Part shown: piece after piece, positions 1 through 7,407 of the stretch | How the letters are laid out: each line of letters opens with the position of its first letter | Numbering within the stretch: the stretch's first letter is position 1 | Origin: a virus | Lineage: Duplodnaviria > Heunggongvirae > Uroviricota > Caudoviricetes | Virus record (IMG/VR): IMGVR_UViG_3300028976_000046 | DNA length: 7,407 nucleotides | Reading direction: 5' to 3' (one strand) | Translations under genes and position numbers: made by a program | Notes under the pieces: generated by a model | The model's input: only the letters and a program-made list of their open reading frames with translations | Database searches by the model: none | Told to the model about the DNA's origin: nothing

Positions 1-318
1 ATGAAAAAGATAGCTGCTATATCATTAATTAGTGTTTTTCTTATGTCTGGGTGTGCTGTACATAATGATGAGACAAGTATCGGTAAATTTGGTCTTGCAT
101 ATAAAAGTAATATTCAGCGTAAACTCGATAACCAATACTACACCGAAGCCGAAGCTTCTTTAGCCAGGGGTAGAATATCTGGTGCAGAAAATATAGTAAA
201 AAATGATGCAGTTCATTTCTGTGTTACTCAGGGCAAAAAAATGCAGATAGTTGACCTGAAGACAGAAGGTGCAGGATTACATGGCGTCGCTCGTCTGACA
301 TTCAAATGTGGAGAGTGA
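1..318 (+). CDS. Small putative secreted protein or lipoprotein (105 aa), function unknown; AT-rich gene in the flank left of the att core
   Basis: ORF starts exactly at window position 1. N-terminus MKKIAAISLISVFLMSGC is a signal peptide with a lipobox-like LMSGC (Cys18). Low GC compared with the phage region. Its size (105 aa) and position would fit E. coli yegR beside the cyaR/P2 locI site, but that is synteny reasoning from memory, not sequence recognition. Confidence 0.55.
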   Translation: MKKIAAISLISVFLMSGCAVHNDETSIGKFGLAYKSNIQRKLDNQYYTEAEASLARGRISGAENIVKNDAVHFCVTQGKKMQIVDLKTEGAGLHGVARLTFKCGE

Positions 319-337
319 GAATAGATTCAAGACTACC

Positions 338-463
338 ATGCACATATTTATTTTATCTGTGATGGGATATTCTTCAACACCATTATTGAATGTGAGTAAT
401 AATGACAAACAGATAGATGAAACTAAAGCAGAATTTTTATTTTATGCAGCCATCAGAAAATGA
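338..463 (+). CDS. Possible micro-ORF (41 aa) with hydrophobic N-terminus, directly downstream of the lipoprotein gene
   Basis: ATG at 338 to TGA at 461-463 reads MHIFILSVMGYSSTPLLNVSNNDKQIDETKAEFLFYAAIRK. It is below the length cut-off of the supplied ORF track. No clear Shine-Dalgarno sequence, and the region is AT-rich, so a chance ORF is quite possible. Confidence 0.15.
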   Translation: MHIFILSVMGYSSTPLLNVSNNDKQIDETKAEFLFYAAIRK

Positions 464-646
464 TGTCAAAAATGTTCCAATGCTTTAGGTTCATTTTTTG
501 GTAAGCGTCAAACATGCGCGTTCTGGCTGTGCGTAACCGGAACCTGTGCGAGCACGATGTCGATAAGTGAAAAGCATCGTGCTATGAAGGAGGATTCTAT
601 CGATGTGGTCAATGGAAGACGGTGACCAGGGATAGGGCTTATGCAT

Positions 647-673
647 AAAAAATAAGCCCGTGTAAGGGAGATT
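647..673. other. attL: P2-type attachment core (27 bp), interpreted as the attL junction between host flank and prophage P' arm
   Basis: Sequence AAAAAATAAGCCCGTGTAAGGGAGATT equals the 27-bp P2 att core as I recall it. It lies about 80 bp beyond the 3' end of int, as in P2 where int is transcribed toward attP. On the minus strand it reads AATCTCCCTTACACGGGCTTATTTTTT, a short GC stem plus T-run identical to my recollection of the 3' end of the CyaR sRNA (the locI attB). Confidence 0.55.
647..673 (-). terminator. Probable intrinsic terminator for int, formed by the att core on the minus strand
   Basis: Minus-strand reading CCCUUACACGGG followed by CUUAUUUUUU: a short GC stem and U-run located downstream of the int stop at 753. 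Confidence 0.35.
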
Positions 674-752
674 TAGGGTGTCACCAGTAGGGGCTTTCAA
701 CGGTACAATGCGGGTTTGAGCGGCATAAATTACCACTGAAAGCCCTTAAACG

Positions 753-1762
753 TTACTCTACTGTGGACACTGTGTGGACACTCTCGGCCTCAGTACCACC
801 TCTTAGCGGATTAAGAGAAATGGCGTCCTGAAGGTACTCTGGCGCAAAATGAGCGTAAACCATAGTTTGCTCAATCCGCGTGTGACCTAGTATCCGTTGT
901 AGCGTGATAATACTTCCTCCATTAATCATGAAATGAGTGGCAAAGCTGTGCCTTAGTGCATGTGTGGCTTGCCCCATTGGCAAATCCGGTTTTATTGCTT
1001 TCATTGTTCGTCTGAAGCGAGGGTAATCAGCATCAGGGAATAAAAAACCTCGTTTGTTATCCGCGATCATTTTGGCAACAGCCTCTGAGATCGGGACGGT
1101 GCGTGGTTTGTTTTCGTTTTAACAAACGTGACGCGGTTATGGATGATATTTTCTGCTTTCAAACGAGCTGCTTCTCCCCAACGTGCTCCAGTACTCAGGC
1201 AAAGAATCGCAATCTTTTTGTTGTCGCCGTCAAGAGCAGCAAGCAGTAAGGCAATTTCTTCCTGCGTGAGATAGCCTGTGTCTGGTTTTTCCTCCTTAAG
1301 CCTTTTTGTCCCTCTGATAGGGTGCTCACCAAAGAATAACTCCGCTTCAATCAGGGCTGTAAACATGCCGCTAATACATGTTAAATCACGATTGATACTC
1401 GAAGGTTTAATACCCTGACTTCTTCGGGTGGCGCAGTACTGGCTGATAAGCGATTTCGTAATTTGAAATGCGCATGGGTTATTCGTTATTTTTGTGAAGA
1501 TTTCAATTTTTCCAAGATTAGATTTCCCATGCTCTTCGTGTTTACCCTTTAAATCCCACCAGATCTGTGTCAGCTCCGACAGACGTCGCTTGTCTGTTGG
1601 TTTTGATAGCCATTCTTTATTGTGGTGGTTGTACAACGTGTATTTCTCGAAAGCGACAGCTTCGCTTTTCTTATCAAACTTCCTACGGATGCGTTTTCCA
1701 TTACGTCCAGTAGGGCGGATGTCCACTTCATATCGACCATCATCGAGTTTTTTGATTGCCAT
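753..1762 (-). pseudogene. int: P2-type tyrosine integrase, disrupted by a frameshift and read as two ORFs (N-terminal part 1067-1762, C-terminal part 753-1070)
   Basis: The two adjacent minus-strand ORFs (231 aa and 105 aa) are in different frames and together give about 337 aa. The C-terminal part contains the catalytic-domain motifs HALRHSFATHF and LGHTRIEQTMVYAHF with the active-site Tyr. The frame change maps to the AAAACAAACC run (plus-strand GGTTTGTTTT, about 1104-1113). A sequencing error cannot be excluded. Confidence 0.8.
762..781. promoter_or_regulatory. Tandem direct repeats TGTGGACAC x2, candidate Int arm-type binding sites of the P' arm, overlapping the 3' end of int
   Basis: Copies at 762-770 and 773-781, 11 bp apart. 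TGTGGACA is the P2 Int arm-site consensus as I remember it. A second feature nearby is a 9-bp inverted pair GGGCTTTCA (691-699) and TGAAAGCCC (738-746). Confidence 0.4.
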
Positions 1763-1877
1763 CAGAAAACCCTCCGAGTGGTGTGTTTTTTTGCGACTAC
1801 TAATCGCTTTTTTCGTGGTGGCTGAAATTTAGCCACCAATAGTAGGCACTTGTGATGAATATATTCACGATGAATTG

Positions 1878-2177
1878 TTAACCAGTCTTTTGACCGGAGT
1901 GGGGCGACGTTGTTTCGTTTTGCCCAAAGTGTGCGAGAGCGGGCGCAATTTGCCCGGACTCAGGAGCGACCTGATTGGTCATGAACCATAAAGTGTATTT
2001 GGTGAATTGTGGGGTCTGCAGGATGTTCATCATGACATCTGTTGGAGGTGTTGAACGACCACTTTCATAGTAACTCAGCGTGCCATACGGAACCCCTGTT
2101 AAATCAGCAAGTTGTTGTCTGCTCAAATACTCTGATTTTCGCATTAAGACTATCTTCTCGCTTATCGTGTTTGACAT
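1878..2177 (-). CDS. C: Immunity repressor C (99 aa)
   Basis: 99-aa ORF divergent from cox, with an HTH segment (LSRQQLADLTGVPYGTLSYYESG). Length and sequence match my recollection of P2 C. Its start codon (2175-2177) overlaps the -35 of the early promoter. Confidence 0.85.
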   Translation of the reverse strand: MSNTISEKIVLMRKSEYLSRQQLADLTGVPYGTLSYYESGRSTPPTDVMMNILQTPQFTKYTLWFMTNQVAPESGQIAPALAHFGQNETTSPHSGQKTG

Positions 2178-2210
2178 GGTGTTTAGATCTCAATAGTATT
2201 TGGTTTAGAT
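2171..2210 (+). promoter_or_regulatory. Early promoter Pe with operator direct repeats O1/O2
   Basis: -35 TTGACA at 2171-2176, a 17-bp spacer, and -10 TAGTAT at 2194-2199. Two identical 8-mers GTTTAGAT at 2181-2188 and 2203-2210, 22 bp centre to centre, flank the -10, which is the P2 C-operator arrangement. Confidence 0.6.
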
Positions 2211-2240
2211 GTAGATTGTTTAGTGCTTGGATGTGGGCAC

Positions 2241-2270
2241 TAAAAGGCATTATAAGGCATTAAACGCAAT
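2241..2270 (-). promoter_or_regulatory. Candidate Pc (repressor promoter) -10 with three tandem 10-bp cox-box-like repeats
   Basis: Minus-strand TATAAT (plus coordinates 2249-2254), oriented toward C and convergent with Pe. Tandem units TAAAAGGCAT, TATAAGGCAT and TAAACGCAAT at 2241-2270; the third contains TTAAACGCA, fitting the recalled Cox-box consensus TTAAA(G/C)NCA. The -35 is weak. Confidence 0.4.
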
Positions 2271-2291
2271 TCATGAGGGCTGGGGGACGAC

Positions 2292-2567
2292 ATGAGCAAG
2301 CAAGTAACACTCATGACTGATGCGATTCCTTATCAGGAGTTCGCAAAACTAATAGGAAAATCGACAGGAGCGGTTCGTCGGATGATCGATAAAGGAAAGC
2401 TGCCTGTAATTGATATGACCGATCCACAATCAGCTTCAGGTCGTGCAGGTGAATATTGGGTATACCTTCCGGCATGGAATAACGGACTAAAACTGGCTTA
2501 TGAAAGCCGCCCTAAAGAGATTCGTGACGGCTGGTTGATGTGGTTAGGTCTCGGTGAACCACGTTAA
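2292..2567 (+). CDS. cox: Cox (91 aa): excisionase and repressor of Pc
   Basis: 91-aa ORF, first gene rightward from Pe, with a G-rich ribosome-binding site upstream. Sequence matches my recollection of P2 Cox. Confidence 0.85.
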   Translation: MSKQVTLMTDAIPYQEFAKLIGKSTGAVRRMIDKGKLPVIDMTDPQSASGRAGEYWVYLPAWNNGLKLAYESRPKEIRDGWLMWLGLGEPR

Positions 2568-2577
2568 GGAGAACCGT

Positions 2578-2748
2578 ATGAACGAGCCTCGTTGTATTGC
2601 TCAGTTATTGCGTAACGAAAGCCCCAGGGCGATTGACTTCACCATCACCCACGGTAAGGGGCGTAAGGGAATCATTATCCGCACCAAAAAACAGAGTCCG
2701 TTAAAGAAGGCTCTGACCTTTCTGAAAAGCCGGAGGGTCTGGAAATGA
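2578..2748 (+). CDS. Small early protein, P2 orf78-like (56 aa from the ATG; the ORF track extends it to a GTG at 2554)
   Basis: ATG at 2578 is preceded by AAGGAGA at 2565-2571. The stop overlaps the B start (ATGA). Position between cox and B matches P2 orf78. Confidence 0.55.
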   Translation: MNEPRCIAQLLRNESPRAIDFTITHGKGRKGIIIRTKKQSPLKKALTFLKSRRVWK

Positions 2749-3245
2749 CAGTGATGACGCTCAATCTCGTCGAAAAACAGCCAGCAGCTATGCGCCGGAT
2801 AATTGGCAAGCATCTTGCCGTCCCTCGCTGGCAGGAGACATGTGATTATTATAATCAGATGATGGAGCGCGAACGGCTAACGGTTTGCTTTCATGCGCAG
2901 TTAAAACAACGTCACGCAACGATGCGTTTTGAAGAAATGAACGACGTCGAACGTGAACGGCTGGTTTGTGCAATTGATGAACTGCGTGGGGCATTCTCAA
3001 AACGCCGTCAGGTCGGTGCAAGTGAGTATGCATATATTAGTTTTTTAACAGTCAGTCAGCGTCGTACTTTATTTATGCATGCGGGATTGACAGAAAAAGA
3101 ATTCAATCAGCCGTACTGGCGCATTAATGAAGAATCATGTTACTGGCGTGATGCTTTATTCCGTGCATTACGTGAATTGTTCAGCCTGTTTGAGTATGCA
3201 CCGACAATTCTGACATCGGTAAAACCAGAGCAATATCTGCATTAA
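2745..3245 (+). CDS. B: Replication protein B (166 aa), needed for lagging-strand synthesis and thought to act as a helicase loader
   Basis: 166-aa ORF translationally coupled to orf78; size and position as in P2 gene B. Confidence 0.75.
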   Translation: MTVMTLNLVEKQPAAMRRIIGKHLAVPRWQETCDYYNQMMERERLTVCFHAQLKQRHATMRFEEMNDVERERLVCAIDELRGAFSKRRQVGASEYAYISFLTVSQRRTLFMHAGLTEKEFNQPYWRINEESCYWRDALFRALRELFSLFEYAPTILTSVKPEQYLH

Positions 3246-3266
3246 GTAAGTAACCAGAGTTTCTAA

Positions 3267-3294
3267 CGCACTTAATTGTGCGGGGCTTCTTTTT
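3267..3294 (+). terminator. Weak hairpin plus T-run downstream of B (possible attenuator)
   Basis: CGCAC (3267-3271), loop TTAATT, GTGCG (3278-3282), then GGGCTTCTTTTTG. The stem is only 5 bp, so this is tentative. Confidence 0.25.
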
Positions 3295-3308
3295 GCCTGG
3301 AGAAAGTC

Positions 3309-3533
3309 ATGCATACAGTTTCTGAAAATCAGTGCGGTAAATACGCATTACTGCTGCAACAGACCAGAACCGAAGCACAGGCCGACGCGGCGACGCGCTT
3401 TTCTTCTCATCTTGACGCCATGATTCGCCACATCACAAAGGCGGAGTTATCCCGCGTGGAGATAGTCGAGCTGCTCAGTCAGGAGTCGGAAAAATTTCAC
3501 AATATCGGATTGTCTCGCGGGGAGGTACTTTGA
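3309..3533 (+). CDS. Small early protein, P2 orf80-like (74 aa from the ATG; track ORF begins at TTG 3276)
   Basis: ATG at 3309 preceded by GGAGAAA. Protein [17 protein letters not shown]... has no recognisable domain. Confidence 0.55.
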
Positions 3534-3832
3534 TGTCCTGTTCTCATTCAGTTGTATTACTGAATAACGCCTTAAAAATCGCCGTTATGGAAAATGGTGA
3601 TTTGTCTCTTATTCAACTTTGTCTTGATAAAGAAAAACGCGACATAACTGAATCTGTTATCGCGATTTATCAGAATGAATTAAACCTCCTGTCTGATGTG
3701 GTCAATTTACTTGTTAAACGCGCTGTATTCCACAAGCAAATTTCCTCCGTGGATGAACTGACAAAATTAACGACAGAACTTGCCAGTTATTGCGCTGATG
3801 TATCCAGGAAACTTAACGATAAAAGGAGCTGA
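3533..3832 (+). CDS. Small early protein, P2 orf81-like (99 aa), predicted helical, function unknown
   Basis: ATG at 3533 overlaps the orf80 stop (TGATG) and is preceded by GGGGAGG, indicating translational coupling. Confidence 0.55.
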   Translation: MSCSHSVVLLNNALKIAVMENGDLSLIQLCLDKEKRDITESVIAIYQNELNLLSDVVNLLVKRAVFHKQISSVDELTKLTTELASYCADVSRKLNDKRS

Positions 3833-3834
3833 TA

Positions 3835-4059
3835 ATGCCGGACAACGTAGATTTTATTCAGGAACAACAGGCTGAATTACTGGAGCGCCAGATTAACGCG
3901 GCAAGGGTAAAACATTGCGGTGCTTCTGCGCTGGTTTGCGAAGAGTGTGACGCGCCAATACCTGCTGCCCGTCGTGCGGCTTATCCGTCAGCCACGCGTT
4001 GTGTTTCCTGTCAGTCAGTCTTTGAAGCAAAAAACAAACATTACCGGAGAACGGCATGA
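3835..4059 (+). CDS. DksA/TraR-family C4 zinc-finger protein (74 aa), P2 orf82-like
   Basis: CxxC...CxxC arrangement (CEECDAPIPAARRAAYPSATRCVSCQ) near the C-terminus, typical of the TraR/DksA C4 zinc-finger family. AAGGAG ribosome-binding site upstream. Confidence 0.7.
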   Translation: MPDNVDFIQEQQAELLERQINAARVKHCGASALVCEECDAPIPAARRAAYPSATRCVSCQSVFEAKNKHYRRTA

Positions 4060-4331
4060 GTATTCGTATTGAAATTGGCGAACGTTATGTCGTTACCAGT
4101 GACAGCTTTCAGTTTATTCTCCACGAGAAAAAGAGAGCGGAAAGCGGTAAAAACGCCGGTCAGGAATGGCTGGCAGTGGTTGGTTATTACCCGAAATTAA
4201 GCCAGCTCGTTTCCGGCCTGATGCATCACGATATTCTGACCGGAAGCGCAAAGTCTTTCGCTGATTTAAACGCGCAGGTTGAGCAACTCAGCAGGCGTTG
4301 TTCAGAGGCTTTTGGCTCATATGGCCGTTAA
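4056..4331 (+). CDS. Small early protein, P2 orf83-like (91 aa), function unknown
   Basis: ATG overlaps the orf82 stop (ATGA). It is the last small ORF before gene A. Confidence 0.55.
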   Translation: MSIRIEIGERYVVTSDSFQFILHEKKRAESGKNAGQEWLAVVGYYPKLSQLVSGLMHHDILTGSAKSFADLNAQVEQLSRRCSEAFGSYGR

Positions 4332-4701
4332 AGCCTCCGGGCGTTTTGTCCCTCCGTCAGCATTTGCCGCAGGCACCGGTGAGACGTTTACCGGTGCTTA
4401 TGCATGGAATGCGCCACGCGAGGCCGTCGGGCGCGAAAGACCCCTTACACGTGACGAGATGCGTCAGGTGCAAGGTGTTTTATCCACGATTAATCGCCTG
4501 CCTTACTTTTTGCGCTCGCTGTTTACTTCACGCTATGACTACATCCGGCGCAATAAAAGCCCGGTGCACGGGTTTTATTTCCTCACATCCACTTTTCAGC
4601 GTCGTTTATGGCCGCGCATTGAGCGTGTGAATCAGCGCCATGAAATGAACACCGACGCGTCGTTGCTGTTTCTGGCAGAGCGTGACCATTATGCGCGTCT
4701 G
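4321..4701 (+). pseudogene. A: 5' fragment (about 127 codons) of rolling-circle replication initiator gene A, interrupted by an IS
   Basis: From MAVKASGRFVPPSAFAAGTG... to ...LLFLAERDHYARL the sequence agrees with my recollection of the P2 gpA N-terminus (761 aa in P2). After codon 127 the reading frame runs into the IS terminal repeat and stops at 4750-4752. Confidence 0.75.
4698..4701. repeat. Candidate 4-bp target-site duplication TCTG (left copy; right copy at 7281-7284)
   Basis: TCTG directly abuts both ends if the IS spans 4702-7280. A 4-bp duplication is known for IS21. With this model the A reading frame continues in phase across the insertion. Confidence 0.4.
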
Positions 4702-4773
4702 CGTATTTTCATGAAAGGAGATCACTCAATAACTTCCATCGAGATCGGGTAATAACATTTGAACAGATCGCTG

Positions 4774-4837
4774 AATAACATCGATGGAGATCACTTTTGA
4801 CTCATTTTGTTATTCAGTGATCTCCATCAATGTTATT
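4774..4837. repeat. Internal inverted pair of the terminal-repeat motif in the IS left end
   Basis: AATAACATCGATGGAGATCAC (4774-4794) and GTGATCTCCATCAATGTTATT (4817-4837) are inverted copies matching at 20 of 21 positions, separated by a 22-bp spacer, in the istA leader. Confidence 0.6.
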
Positions 4838-4892
4838 GGAACTTCACAGGTGTGTTGATCTGTATCTTTTGCCATTCCGGTAAAGGATACCT

Positions 4893-6434
4893 ATGCCAAC
4901 AGTTCCAATTTCTATGAGAAAACTTAAAGAAATTCTTAGGCTTAAATACGGTGTTGGACTCAGCCATCGACAAATTGGTCGTAGTCTTGCAATCTCCCCT
5001 TCCGTTGTATCCAGATATGCTAATCGGGCGGCTCAACTTGGCATAAAGCAGTGGCCCTTACCTACAGGATGGGATGATACAAAACTAAAACATGCGTTCC
5101 TTCAGACCCAGGTTAAGATGAAGAAGCACTCTCTGCCTGACTGGGCTACAGTACACCGGGAACTGCGTAATAAATGCGTGACGCTGCAGCTACTCTGGGA
5201 AGAATACTGTGAGCGTAATCCAGGCGGTTTTTACAGCTATAACCATTACTGCCGGATGTACCGTGAATGGCTCAAAACCACTTCACCATCAATGCGTCAG
5301 GTACATAAAGCTGGCGAAAAACTTTTCGTTGATTACTGTGGACCTACCGTTGGCGTTACCGACCCTGAGACCGGAGAAATAAGAACTGCTCAGGTCATCG
5401 TAGCTGTTCTCGGGGCATCAAGTTACACATGGGCAGAGGCCACCTGGTCTCAGCAGCTTGAAGACTGGGTGATGAGTCATGTTCGCTGCTTCCAGTGGTT
5501 GGGTGGCGTTCCTGAACTTGTTGTTCCGGACAATCTGAAAAGCGCCACATCCAGGGCATGTAAGTATGATCCTGACGTTAACCCTACCTACCAGCAGATG
5601 CTTGAGCATTATAATGTCGCAGTTTTGCCTGCGCGGCCACGTAAACCGAAAGATAAAGCCAAAGCTGAAGTTGGCGTTCAGGTTGTTGAACGCTGGATCA
5701 TGGCCCGAATCAGGCATGAGATCTTCTACAGCCTTGCATCGCTTAATCAGCGCATTCGGGAGTTGCTGGAAAGACTGAATAACAAAATAATGCAGAAGTT
5801 GGGTTATTCACGTGCAGAACTCTTCATCCAGCTTGATAAACCCGCACTGAAGCCTCTTCCTGAAGCCAGTTACAGTTACACCCTGGTGAAGAAAGTCAGA
5901 GTTCATGCCGATTACCACGTGGAAATCGACAAACATTACTACTCGGTTCCATGTTCGCTGTTAGGCCAGCAACTGGAAGCATGGATCTCCGGAGAACTGG
6001 TAAGACTCTTCAATCAGGGGCAGGAGGTTGCTGTGCACCCGCGCAAGCGTACTTATGGCTACAGTACCCGCAACGAGCACATGCCTGAAGCTCATCGACA
6101 GCATGCCACCTGGACGCCAGAGCGTCTTCTGGAATGGGCGGGGCACATAGGCAGTGAAACTCATAGTTATGTGCTTCATATACTGAACTCTCGTCCACAT
6201 CCGGAACAAAGCTATCGCTTCTGCCTTGGACTCCTGAACCTTCATAAAAAATACAGTAAAGCCAGACTTAATGCAGCATGTGCAAGAGCTCTGAAAACAA
6301 AGGTATGGCGTCTGTCAGGTATTAAATCGATCCTGGAAAAAGGTCTGGATAAACAACCTGTTCAGGATCCAAAACCAGATCTGTTATCCACGATGGAACA
6401 CGAAAACGTACGCGGCAGTGAGTATTACCACTGA
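4893..6434 (+). CDS. istA: IS21-family transposase IstA (513 aa)
   Basis: N-terminal HTH (LSHRQIGRSLAISPSVVSRYA), long catalytic region, immediately followed by istB. Ribosome-binding site AAAGGA upstream. Confidence 0.9.
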   Translation: MPTVPISMRKLKEILRLKYGVGLSHRQIGRSLAISPSVVSRYANRAAQLGIKQWPLPTGWDDTKLKHAFLQTQVKMKKHSLPDWATVHRELRNKCVTLQLLWEEYCERNPGGFYSYNHYCRMYREWLKTTSPSMRQVHKAGEKLFVDYCGPTVGVTDPETGEIRTAQVIVAVLGASSYTWAEATWSQQLEDWVMSHVRCFQWLGGVPELVVPDNLKSATSRACKYDPDVNPTYQQMLEHYNVAVLPARPRKPKDKAKAEVGVQVVERWIMARIRHEIFYSLASLNQRIRELLERLNNKIMQKLGYSRAELFIQLDKPALKPLPEASYSYTLVKKVRVHADYHVEIDKHYYSVPCSLLGQQLEAWISGELVRLFNQGQEVAVHPRKRTYGYSTRNEHMPEAHRQHATWTPERLLEWAGHIGSETHSYVLHILNSRPHPEQSYRFCLGLLNLHKKYSKARLNAACARALKTKVWRLSGIKSILEKGLDKQPVQDPKPDLLSTMEHENVRGSEYYH

Positions 6435-6445
6435 TACGGGATCCA

Positions 6446-7195
6446 ATGATGAATCATCTTTACGAACAACTGACCGCACTTAAACTCACCGGCTTCCGTG
6501 ATGCGCTTAAAAAGCAACTTGCTCAGCCGGGCACATACCAGGAGCTGGGCTTCGAAGAACGCCTGTCATTACTGACAGCAGAAGAACTAACCTGCCGTGA
6601 AAACAGGAAGGCAGAGCGTCTGATCAAACATGCACGGTTCAGACTTAATGCTGAGTTATCAAAGCTGGATTATCGTAACAATAGAGGGCTGGACAGGGCC
6701 CTCATCCGTTCACTCAGTCAGGGAAACTGGTTAACCCTGAAACAAAATATTTTACTGACCGGGGCCACCGGCAGCGGTAAAACGTTCCTGGCATGTGCAC
6801 TTGGTCATAATGCCTGCCGACAGGGATACAAGGTCTACTATTATCGCCTTAAAGCGCTGATGGAACAGTGCTATCAGGGGCATGCTGATGGAAGATACAG
6901 CAAACTTTTGACCAGGCTGAATAATAGCGATCTGCTGCTTCTGGATGACTGGGGGCTGGAACCTCTCTCATCAGAACAGCGTAGCGACCTGCTGGAAATA
7001 GTGGATCTGATGTACCAACGAGGCTCAATCATCGTAGTGAGCCAGTTGCCGGTGGAAAACTGGTACAAAATGATCGGAGACTCCACACATGCGGATGCCA
7101 TCCTAGATCGACTGGTTCATGGCAGTATCAAGATCGAACTTAAAGGAGAATCAATGCGGAAAATACAATCACCGTTGACCGAAGGAGATCAGTGA
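6446..7195 (+). CDS. istB: IS21-family ATP-binding helper protein IstB (249 aa)
   Basis: Walker A GATGSGKT and Walker B LLLLDDWG motifs; starts 11 bp after the istA stop. Confidence 0.9.
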   Translation: MMNHLYEQLTALKLTGFRDALKKQLAQPGTYQELGFEERLSLLTAEELTCRENRKAERLIKHARFRLNAELSKLDYRNNRGLDRALIRSLSQGNWLTLKQNILLTGATGSGKTFLACALGHNACRQGYKVYYYRLKALMEQCYQGHADGRYSKLLTRLNNSDLLLLDDWGLEPLSSEQRSDLLEIVDLMYQRGSIIVVSQLPVENWYKMIGDSTHADAILDRLVHGSIKIELKGESMRKIQSPLTEGDQ

Positions 7196-7231
7196 AGGTA
7201 ATTTAAAAACGGTTCTGTGAAAGTGACACGA

Positions 7232-7280
7232 ACCGATCTCCATCGATGTTACTCACCGATCTCCTTCACGGTAATACGCA
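7232..7280. repeat. Right terminal inverted repeat of the IS, with two GGAGATC-containing repeat units
   Basis: Its reverse complement aligns with 4700-4750 at about 37 of 49 positions. The inner unit GATCTCCATCGATGTT (7235-7250) is a perfect inverted match to AACATCGATGGAGATC at 4777-4792. Confidence 0.7.
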
Positions 7281-7284
7281 TCTG

Positions 7285-7407
7285 ATTACTGCTGCCCTGA
7301 TTATTGTCTGTTTTGTTGTTCTCCTGCTTATGCCTTTTCCGGGCGTCCCCCTGGCGGGGCGGGCTGTCGTGAACGGAGCCAGCGGAGCTGTCTCCGCCCT
7401 GGCGGGC
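7285..7407 (+). other. Open frame in the right flank, running off the window end; identity unresolved
   Basis: One frame is open to the end: LITAALIIVCFVVLLLMPFPGVPLAGRAVVNGASGAVSALAG, hydrophobic then Gly/Ala-rich. The other two plus frames have early stops. The region is GC-rich, and two minus-strand frames are also open, so coding status is uncertain. Confidence 0.25.

What the first reader, a model, noticed from the sequence alone, without database searches (positions are those of the whole stretch)
7281..7407. Right flank is in phase with A but does not look like P2 gpA
Under the 4-bp TSD model the A frame continues uninterrupted across the insertion into the only open plus-strand frame of the flank. 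That frame encodes a hydrophobic, membrane-like stretch (LITAALIIVCFVVLLL...) in GC-rich DNA, which does not match the gpA continuation I recall for P2. Either A diverges sharply here in this phage, or the IS marks a deletion or rearrangement joining A to unrelated DNA and the TCTG and frame match are coincidence. The two readings predict very different prophage structures.
Basis: inference. Interest (0 to 1): 0.55.

Follow-up and report, generated by a model that had tools for sequence, protein, structure and literature searches.

The report
IS-bridged prophage-to-plasmid junction
The 127 bases after the insertion sequence are not the rest of the phage replication gene A but a piece of an F-type plasmid, joined to the prophage through an ISEc12 copy that is identical in chromosome and plasmid; this is an ordinary IS-mediated (or assembly-made) join.

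Summary
The flank (7281-7407) is real and is not gpA. It is 100% identical to F-type plasmid leading-region DNA (pECOS88 46579-46705), found almost only on plasmids and in no phage. It lies in a conserved module next to the Frpo1-type single-strand promoter repeat, 110 bp short of the promoter homolog.

The IS is ISEc12 (IS21 family), 4700-7280, with TG...CA ends. ISEc12 makes 5-bp or 8-bp duplications, and the window's flanks (GCGTC / TCTGA) match under neither.

Sister genomes (E. coli KTE5, KTE7 and others) are identical to window 1-7280. There the IS is a simple insertion with an 8-bp duplication (TGCGCGTC), followed by the normal 648-aa remainder of gpA. So A does not diverge. The window's IS has a chromosomal left flank and a plasmid right flank.

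The same 2,581-bp IS (0 mismatches) sits in the pS88-type plasmid of this lineage and occupies different sites in sister plasmids. The exact IS terminus at 7280 shows the right junction was made by transposition. Whether A and the plasmid DNA are physically linked (Hfr-like integration) or joined by an assembler across the repeat cannot be decided from 127 bases. The hybrid junction occurs in no collection searched. Ordinary biology, low interest.

The parts
1..318 (+). yegR, chromosomal lipoprotein gene flanking the prophage (context: shows the left side is chromosomal)
   Evidence: 100% identical to the S88 chromosome, annotated yegR; PF27694 YegR in L005
753..1762 (-). P2-type integrase gene, frameshifted (ORFs 753-1070 and 1067-1762)
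   Evidence: Two ORFs of 105 and 231 aa; annotated 'phage integrase, frameshifted' in S88
1878..4331 (.). P2-like early region: C repressor (1878-2177, -), cox (2292-2567), B (2745-3245), DUF2732, DUF5405, TraR-like zinc finger, DUF5405
   Evidence: 97.3% identical to phage P2 AF063097.1
4321..4699 (+). 5' fragment of replication gene A (codons 1-126 plus 1 base), identical to S88 A
   Evidence: Window identical to the S88 chromosome up to the IS; S88 A is intact, 2,283 bp
4321..4752 (+). Truncated A'-IS fusion ORF (143 aa: 127 aa of gpA plus 16 aa read from the IS left end); a marker of the lineage's A::ISEc12 insertion
   Evidence: The exact product is on 17-24 contigs, e.g. E. coli KTE5 and KTE7
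4692..4699 (.). TGCGCGTC, the 8-bp target. It is duplicated on both sides of the IS in sister genomes, but only this left copy is present in the window.
   Evidence: L005 left ...ATTATGCGCGTC|IS and right IS|TGCGCGTCTGCC; window right IS|TCTGATTACTGC
4700..7280 (+). Complete ISEc12 (IS21 family), 2,581 bp, termini TGCGTATT...AATACGCA
   Evidence: 0 mismatches to the copies in L005, pECOS88 and pMS7163A, where it is annotated ISEc12
4893..6434 (+). istA, IS21-family DDE transposase (513 aa)
   Evidence: NF033546 310 bits (cut-off 160); PF00665 rve, PF22483
6446..7195 (+). istB, IS21 helper AAA+ ATPase (249 aa)
   Evidence: NF038214 270 bits (cut-off 200); PF01695
7281..7407 (+). Fragment of an F-type plasmid leading region (= pECOS88 NC_011747.1 46579-46705), between hok/flm and the Frpo1-type repeat. 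7281-7333 is a variable pyrimidine-rich tract and 7334-7407 is the start of the conserved repeat core.
   Evidence: 100% identity; 4,756 of 4,811 places in complete E. coli genomes are on plasmids; no phage match

Best explanation
The window holds a 'hybrid' ISEc12: its two flanks come from different replicons. Shown: an ST95/S88-type lineage carries ISEc12 as a simple insertion in gene A of a P2-like prophage next to yegR, and the window shares that left junction and the IS base for base. Shown: the 127 bases to the right are F-type (pS88/ColV-like) plasmid leading-region DNA that starts exactly at the IS terminus, so this junction was made by the ISEc12 transposase acting on plasmid DNA. Shown: an identical ISEc12 lives in that plasmid family and occupies different leading-region sites in sister plasmids. 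Inferred: the window's strain has A::ISEc12 in the chromosome and an ISEc12 at a new site (pECOS88 position 46578/46579) in its plasmid. Inferred and narrowly favoured: the contig runs from the chromosomal left flank through 2,581 bp that are identical in both replicons and out into the plasmid right flank because the repeat could not be phased, so the A-to-plasmid linkage is an assembly join and not a structure in the cell. In either case the frame match and 'TCTG' are coincidences, gene A is simply interrupted, and its 3' part lies elsewhere in the genome.
For: The flank is 100% identical to pECOS88 46579-46705 and similar plasmids, and has no phage match. Window 1-7280 has 0 mismatches to L005 (GCA_000459375.1), where the IS has an 8-bp duplication and is followed by the 648-aa gpA 3' product (PF05840), DUF7380, portal and terminase. 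There is no target duplication in the window, against clean duplications at five other ISEc12 copies. The IS is identical (2581/2581) in the window, in L005 and in plasmids pECOS88 and pMS7163A, so nothing inside it can phase the flanks. The IS is at different sites in pECOS88 and pMS7163A, each with the other's site empty, and a further independent insertion lies 34 bp away in pA468_p1, so a new plasmid site is unremarkable. The hybrid junction is absent from 5,426 complete E. coli genomes, 72,556 plasmids, GTDB representatives, JGI metagenomes and IMG/VR. It is also absent from the proteins of ~15 billion gene calls, while the left junction is present on 17-24 contigs. The window stops 127 nt after the IS, which is SPAdes's largest default k-mer; this is a weak hint of a short-read graph contig end (inference only).
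Against: A contig in a public assembly is more often right than wrong, and standard short-read assemblers usually stop at a multi-copy 2.6-kb IS instead of running through it. If the source is a long-read assembly, the linkage would be physical. I could not identify the source record, so the sequencing platform and the sequence beyond 7407 are unknown. The plasmid-side left junction predicted by this model (plasmid ...CTGAC+duplication|ISEc12 left end) was not observed anywhere.
Confidence: 0.48

Rival explanations
1. The linkage is physical: a pS88-like F-type plasmid (or part of it) is integrated into the chromosome at the A::ISEc12 copy, as in an Hfr strain. One route is RecA recombination between the chromosomal ISEc12 and a plasmid ISEc12 at position 46578/9, the classical route of Hfr formation. 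The other is IS21-type replicon fusion, in which a tandem (IS)2 of the chromosomal copy attacks the plasmid at that site. The predicted structure is A5'-IS-plasmid(46579 onward ... 46578)-IS-A3'. oriT would lie about 2.7-3 kb right of the junction, oriented so that transfer proceeds leftward through the IS, the prophage early region, yegR and the gat operon.
For: The sequence as given shows exactly one such junction. The right junction is at the precise IS terminus. IS21-family elements are known for tandem-dimer replicon fusion and adjacent rearrangements (PMC9333248 citing Reimmann and Haas 1987; PMC9330008 citing Berger and Haas 2001). Replicon fusion needs only one event to create the private junction. 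The leading-region sequence occurs on chromosomes at 55 of 4,811 places in complete genomes, so integration happens. SLT, traM and the tra genes follow the flank in pECOS88 in the stated orientation.
Against: No second junction, no reads and no sister assembly show it. All 21 long contigs with the same left junction appear to be grouped with the simple insertion, although the tool's grouping of similar places cannot strictly exclude a variant right side. Integrated F-like leading regions are rare (about 1% of places). A short-read assembly graph is identical for the integrated and non-integrated configurations, so the contig alone cannot prove linkage.
Confidence: 0.4
2. The right junction arose by an ISEc12-adjacent deletion inside the plasmid. 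The resident pECOS88-type copy (in the parB-like gene) would have fused its right end to a site 3,810 bp downstream, deleting parB', psiB, psiA and hok/flm. That copy is then joined, physically or in silico, with the chromosomal copy. This is a variant of how the plasmid-side junction was made, compatible with either linkage model.
For: In pECOS88 the IS right end (42768) and the flank's native site (46579) are 3,810 bp apart and in the same orientation, as an adjacent deletion requires. IS21-family elements cause unidirectional adjacent deletions of 0.5-4.5 kb (PMC9330008).
Against: The sister plasmid pMS7163A shows that the IS also relocates by ordinary insertion, so proximity is not compelling. 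Deleting hok/sok should be counter-selected (argument in PMC9849209). The left side of the plasmid copy is unseen.
Confidence: 0.15
3. Simple ISEc12 insertion in A with a 4-bp duplication TCTG, and gpA of this phage diverges into a hydrophobic sequence after residue ~127.
For: Only the frame arithmetic and the four matching bases.
Against: The IS ends are TG...CA, so TCTG is not a duplication. The flank is 100% plasmid DNA with no phage match. Genomes identical through the IS continue with normal gpA. The native ORF stops 3 codons past the window.
Confidence: 0.01

Closest known systems
A::ISEc12 simple insertion in the yegR-adjacent P2-like prophage of E. coli KTE5, KTE7 and GCA_000459375.1 (sister genomes)
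   Same: Identical sequence from yegR through the last base of the IS (window 1-7280, 0 mismatches); same A'-IS fusion ORF.
   Different: Sisters have the 8-bp duplication TGCGCGTC and the gpA 3' part after the IS. The window has plasmid DNA and no duplication.
Hfr formation by recombination between IS copies on F and on the chromosome, and IS21/R68.45 replicon fusion through (IS21)2 tandems
   Same: One IS copy flanked by chromosomal DNA on one side and conjugative-plasmid DNA on the other, without a target duplication pair; the IS is of the IS21 family.
   Different: Only one of the two required junctions is seen. Linkage across the IS is not demonstrated, and no tandem IS junction is present in the window.
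Chimeric contig paths through multi-copy insertion sequences in draft assemblies
   Same: Flanks from two replicons joined across a repeat identical in both (2581/2581); the junction is unique to this record; the window ends 127 nt after the repeat.
   Different: The assembler and the reads are unknown. The right junction itself is a genuine transposase-made end, not a random chimera.
Frpo1/ssiD single-stranded promoter repeat of F-like plasmid leading regions (Masai and Arai 1997; Couturier et al. 2023, PMC9849209)
   Same: The flank lies in the repeat copy located between hok/flm and the ygeA-type genes, the position of Frpo1 in F. All three ssiD-homologous copies in pECOS88 carry the same extra conserved module that contains the flank.
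   Different: The 127 nt do not overlap the ssiD/Frpo homolog, which starts 110 bp further on and outside the window. The promoter hairpin is therefore not in the window.

Membership tests
P2 gpA (replication endonuclease, PF05840) continuation | Sequence after residue 127 is homologous to gpA (PGMNDKELKK... in P2 and S88) | tested here: not met
   The flank differs from the S88 and L005 continuation at 94 of 127 positions when laid in register. It has no match in 50,697 phage records even in distant mode.
Simple IS insertion | Direct duplication of the target (5 or 8 bp for ISEc12) on both sides, and a contiguous target once the IS plus one duplication copy is removed | tested here: not met
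   Left GCGTC or TGCGCGTC against right TCTGA or TCTGATTA. The left flank is chromosomal and the right flank is plasmid.
ISEc12 / IS21 family | About 2.6 kb, TG...CA termini, istA (DDE transposase) followed by istB (AAA+ helper) | tested here: met
   2,581 bp, TGCGTATT...AATACGCA, identical to RefSeq-annotated ISEc12 copies. NF033546 and NF038214 score above their cut-offs.
F-type plasmid leading region | Sequence identity and synteny with the hok/flm - repeat - ssb-like - ygeA-like - DUF932 - SLT - oriT - traM segment | tested here: met
   127/127 identity to pECOS88 46579-46705 and many IncF plasmids; 4,756 of 4,811 places are on plasmids. Synteny beyond 127 nt cannot be seen in the window.
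Frpo/ssi single-stranded DNA promoter | Homology to F ssiD or Frpo and the long hairpin that rebuilds the -35 and -10 boxes | tested here: not met
   ssiD maps to L004 26816-27165 and the flank to 26580-26706. There is no significant alignment of the flank to ssiD or to the Frpo2 construct.
Hfr-type integration or IS21 cointegrate | Two directly repeated IS copies bracketing the plasmid, with the reciprocal junction plasmid-IS-A3', and physical continuity shown by spanning reads | not testable with these tools
   Only one junction lies in the window. The source record and its reads were not found.
Real small membrane protein gene in the flank | Conserved ORF with a curated family or a coding-type substitution pattern | tested here: inconclusive
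   The ORF is open in all three pECOS88 copies, with an in-frame 6-nt indel, but is broken by a 1-nt deletion in pA468_p1. The C-terminal half is conserved at the DNA level. It matches no Pfam or NCBIfam family, RefSeq annotates the opposite strand as a pseudogene, and 4 of 6 frames are open.

The most novel reading that the evidence does not exclude
The join is physical: a natural Hfr-like strain of the ST95 O45:K1 neonatal-meningitis lineage, in which the pS88-type ColV virulence plasmid is integrated into a defective P2-like prophage through ISEc12. oriT would lie about 3 kb from the junction, oriented to mobilise the yegR-gat side of the chromosome.
Probability: 0.4. Interest if true: 0.4.

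Novelty: already known. Interest (0 to 1): 0.18.

Why it matters
The prophage's A gene is not a divergent variant; it is a P2-type gene interrupted by ISEc12, and the DNA after the IS belongs to a conjugative plasmid. For annotation, the 'membrane-like' ORF must not be fused to gpA, and the contig should be flagged as a possible chromosome-plasmid mis-join. If the linkage were physical, it would be a natural example of IS-mediated integration of a virulence plasmid, able to mobilise chromosomal genes. That would be of moderate interest to plasmid and ExPEC biologists, but mechanistically it is textbook.

Tried and rejected
(1) Divergent gpA: rejected. (2) 4-bp TCTG duplication: rejected after defining the IS ends on five other copies. 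(3) The flank as tail or other P2 DNA: no phage match. (4) The flank as the Frpo promoter itself: it lies 110 bp outside the ssiD homolog. (5) Known RNA family: none anywhere in the window. (6) Looking for SNPs inside the IS to locate a crossover: the chromosomal and plasmid copies are identical, so this is uninformative. (7) Finding the source or a second example of the hybrid junction. I tried exact DNA patterns in genome, metagenome and viral collections, BLAST in complete E. coli genomes and PLSDB, two homology searches with junction-spanning peptides, and exact look-ups of seven modelled junction products. All were negative. (8) pA468_p1 looked like the same junction but is an independent insertion 34 bp upstream with its own duplication CCTTT. 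(9) Proteins with foreign N-termini joined at ...LITAALIIV (P0162, P0195) turned out to be other upstream contexts of the repeat, not ISEc12 junctions. (10) The 127-nt flank length equals SPAdes's top k. I considered using it as evidence of a graph contig end, but neither the integrated nor the non-integrated configuration gives such a contig under plain de Bruijn logic, so I keep it only as a hint.

Full report
WHAT THE WINDOW IS. The left 4.7 kb is E. coli chromosome. It holds yegR (1-318) and then the early region of a P2-like prophage: a frameshifted integrase (753-1762, minus strand), C, cox, B, four small ORFs, and the start of replication gene A at 4321. Bases 1-4701 are 100% identical to the chromosomes of E. 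coli S88, MS7163, N53 and N62. In S88 the same genes are annotated and A is intact at 2,283 bp.

THE INSERTION SEQUENCE AND ITS TRUE ENDS. The element in A is ISEc12 of the IS21 family. istA (4893-6434) matches NF033546 at 310 bits and istB (6446-7195) matches NF038214 at 270 bits, both above their cut-offs. The DNA is identical to copies that RefSeq annotates as ISEc12. I fixed the ends on independent copies whose targets can be reconstructed:
- SCEC020022 chromosome: TSD (target-site duplication) ATGAC.
- pECOS88: TSD CTGTC.
- pMS7163A: TSD TATGG.
- pA468_p1: TSD CCTTT.
- Sister chromosome L005: TSD TGCGCGTC.
All of these copies begin TGCGTATT and end AATACGCA. The IS in the window is therefore 4700-7280 (2,581 bp). 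The real flanks are GCGTC (or TGCGCGTC) on the left and TCTGA (or TCTGATTA) on the right. There is no target duplication.

WHAT THE FLANK IS. Bases 7281-7407 are 100% identical to pECOS88 (NC_011747.1) 46579-46705 and to many other IncF plasmids. In 5,426 complete E. coli genomes the sequence occurs at 4,811 places, of which 4,756 are on plasmids. It has no match in 50,697 phage records, even in distant mode. In pECOS88 it lies between the hok/flm locus and a run of ssb-like, hypothetical and DUF932 genes, then SLT, then traM and the tra operon. That is the plasmid leading region.

The sequence is one of three dispersed repeat copies. Using the published F ssiD/Frpo sequence (supplement of PMC11541004), the Frpo homolog maps to L004 26816-27165, 18839-19187 and 15581-15914. 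The window's flank maps to 26580-26706. So the flank belongs to a conserved module that accompanies each Frpo copy. It occupies the position of Frpo1 of F, between flmAB and ygeA/ygeB (PMC9849209). It stops 110 bp short of the promoter homolog.

THE 'HYDROPHOBIC ORF'. An alignment of the copies shows that 7281-7333 is a variable pyrimidine-rich tract and that the conserved core starts near 7334. The hydrophobic translation comes from that T/C-rich tract. In the native context the frame is a 66-aa ORF that stops three codons beyond the window's end. It matches no curated family. RefSeq annotates the opposite strand as a pseudogene. Four of the six frames are open across the 127 nt. The frame match with A is therefore a 1-in-3 coincidence with no meaning. 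Whether the small ORF is a gene in plasmids remains open. It is open in all three pECOS88 copies, with an in-frame indel, but it is broken in pA468_p1.

WHAT NORMALLY FOLLOWS THE IS. The truncated A'-IS fusion product (143 aa, 4321-4752) is unique to the left junction, so I looked it up by exact sequence. It is on 17-24 public contigs, including E. coli KTE5 and KTE7. In GCA_000459375.1 (L005) the window matches at every base from 1 to 7280. L005 then reads TGCGCGTCTGCCGGGGATGAATG..., which is an 8-bp duplication followed by the rest of A. A 648-aa product with PF05840 follows, then a DUF7380 gene, portal and terminase. So the lineage has a plain A::ISEc12 insertion and A does not diverge. The window shares that left junction and the whole IS but has a different right neighbour.

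WHERE THE RIGHT JUNCTION COMES FROM. The junction sits exactly at the IS terminus, so it was made by transposition and not by a random break or a chimeric read. The same 2,581-bp IS, with 0 mismatches, is carried by the pS88-type plasmids of this lineage. It sits in the parB-like gene in pECOS88 but in the DUF1380 gene in pMS7163A. Each has a 5-bp duplication, and each plasmid has the other's site empty. Another plasmid, pA468_p1, has an independent ISEc12 only 34 bp from the window's junction. A further plasmid-side insertion at 46578/9 is thus unremarkable. An alternative origin is an adjacent deletion from the pECOS88-type copy. The native site of the flank is 3,810 bp downstream of that copy's right end and in the same orientation. 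IS21-family elements cause unidirectional adjacent deletions of 0.5-4.5 kb (PMC9330008).

IS THE A-TO-PLASMID LINKAGE PHYSICAL? A hybrid IS without a duplication pair is the classical signature of recombination between two IS copies or of replicon fusion. IS21 is the textbook case of tandem-dimer replicon fusion (PMC9333248 and PMC9330008). If the linkage is real, the strain is Hfr-like. oriT would lie about 2.7-3 kb to the right (between SLT and traM), oriented to transfer the IS, the prophage early region, yegR and the gat operon first.

However, the chromosomal and plasmid IS copies are identical over all 2,581 bp, so nothing in the window phases the two flanks. A short-read assembly graph is the same for the integrated and the non-integrated configuration. 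The hybrid junction is in none of the collections searched, and I could not find the source record. The window ends 127 nt after the IS, which equals SPAdes's largest default k; I treat this only as a hint of a short-read contig end.

Weighing base rates gives nearly even odds. Integrated F-like leading regions are about 1% of occurrences. Mis-paired IS traversals in draft assemblies are also rare. Replicon fusion needs one event, whereas the artefact needs one transposition plus one assembler error. I narrowly favour an unphased assembly join (0.48) over physical integration (0.40).

VERDICT. The flank is real, G+C-rich and not gpA, but the TSD and 'only open frame' premises are wrong. The biology is ordinary: an active IS21-family element shared by chromosome and plasmid. 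Novelty: already known. Interest: low (0.18). It would rise to about 0.4 if long reads showed a natural Hfr-type integration of the virulence plasmid.

Noticed in passing
window 753-1762 (- strand): The P2-type integrase is split by a frameshift into ORFs of 231 and 105 aa. The same frameshift is annotated in S88. Together with A::ISEc12, the prophage in this lineage is doubly defective (no excision, no replication).
   Followed up: partly
L005 14989-16821 (sister genome, just beyond the A gene; outside the window): The P2 'tin/old' cargo position holds a 610-aa DUF7380 protein that matches the PADLOC candidate defence family PDC-S39 (E 8e-85).
   Followed up: partly
L004 20189-22769 (pECOS88) and L008 9601-12181 (pMS7163A): Two almost identical plasmids (133,853 and 133,843 bp) carry the same 2,581-bp ISEc12 at different leading-region sites (parB-like gene, TSD CTGTC; DUF1380 gene, TSD TATGG), and each has the other's site empty. 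In all four plasmid-side junctions seen (these two, pA468_p1 and the window), the IS has the same orientation as the leading-region genes.
   Followed up: partly
L004 26550-26815, 18574-18838, 15317-15580 (window 7281-7407 is part of the first): Each of the three Frpo/ssiD-homologous copies in pECOS88 carries an additional conserved G+C-rich module of about 240 bp on the side away from the transcribed genes. The T-strand fold is somewhat more stable than shuffles (z = -2.6). Its function, and whether its 61-66-aa hydrophobic ORF is a gene, is unresolved. Public records call the ORFs on its two strands 'transporter', 'pilus protein' or 'yubN'.
   Followed up: partly
window 4692-4699 compared with L005: The lineage insertion in A has an 8-bp target duplication (TGCGCGTC), whereas four other ISEc12 insertions have 5 bp. 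It could also be read as 5 bp (GCGTC) plus 3 extra bases (TGC) carried in at the right end, reminiscent of the 2-3 bp spacer of IS21-type reactive junctions.
   Followed up: no
L003 (E. coli SCEC020022 chromosome) 4141-6721: An independent ISEc12 insertion in gene A of a different P2-like prophage (next to pflA), about 155 bp upstream of the window's insertion point, with a 5-bp duplication ATGAC. This is two separate hits in the first 380 bp of A.
   Followed up: partly
window end (7407): The window stops exactly 127 nt after the IS terminus, which equals the largest default k-mer of SPAdes, and it starts exactly at the yegR start codon. This suggests a region cut at a gene start and running to a short-read contig end, but it could not be verified.
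   Followed up: no
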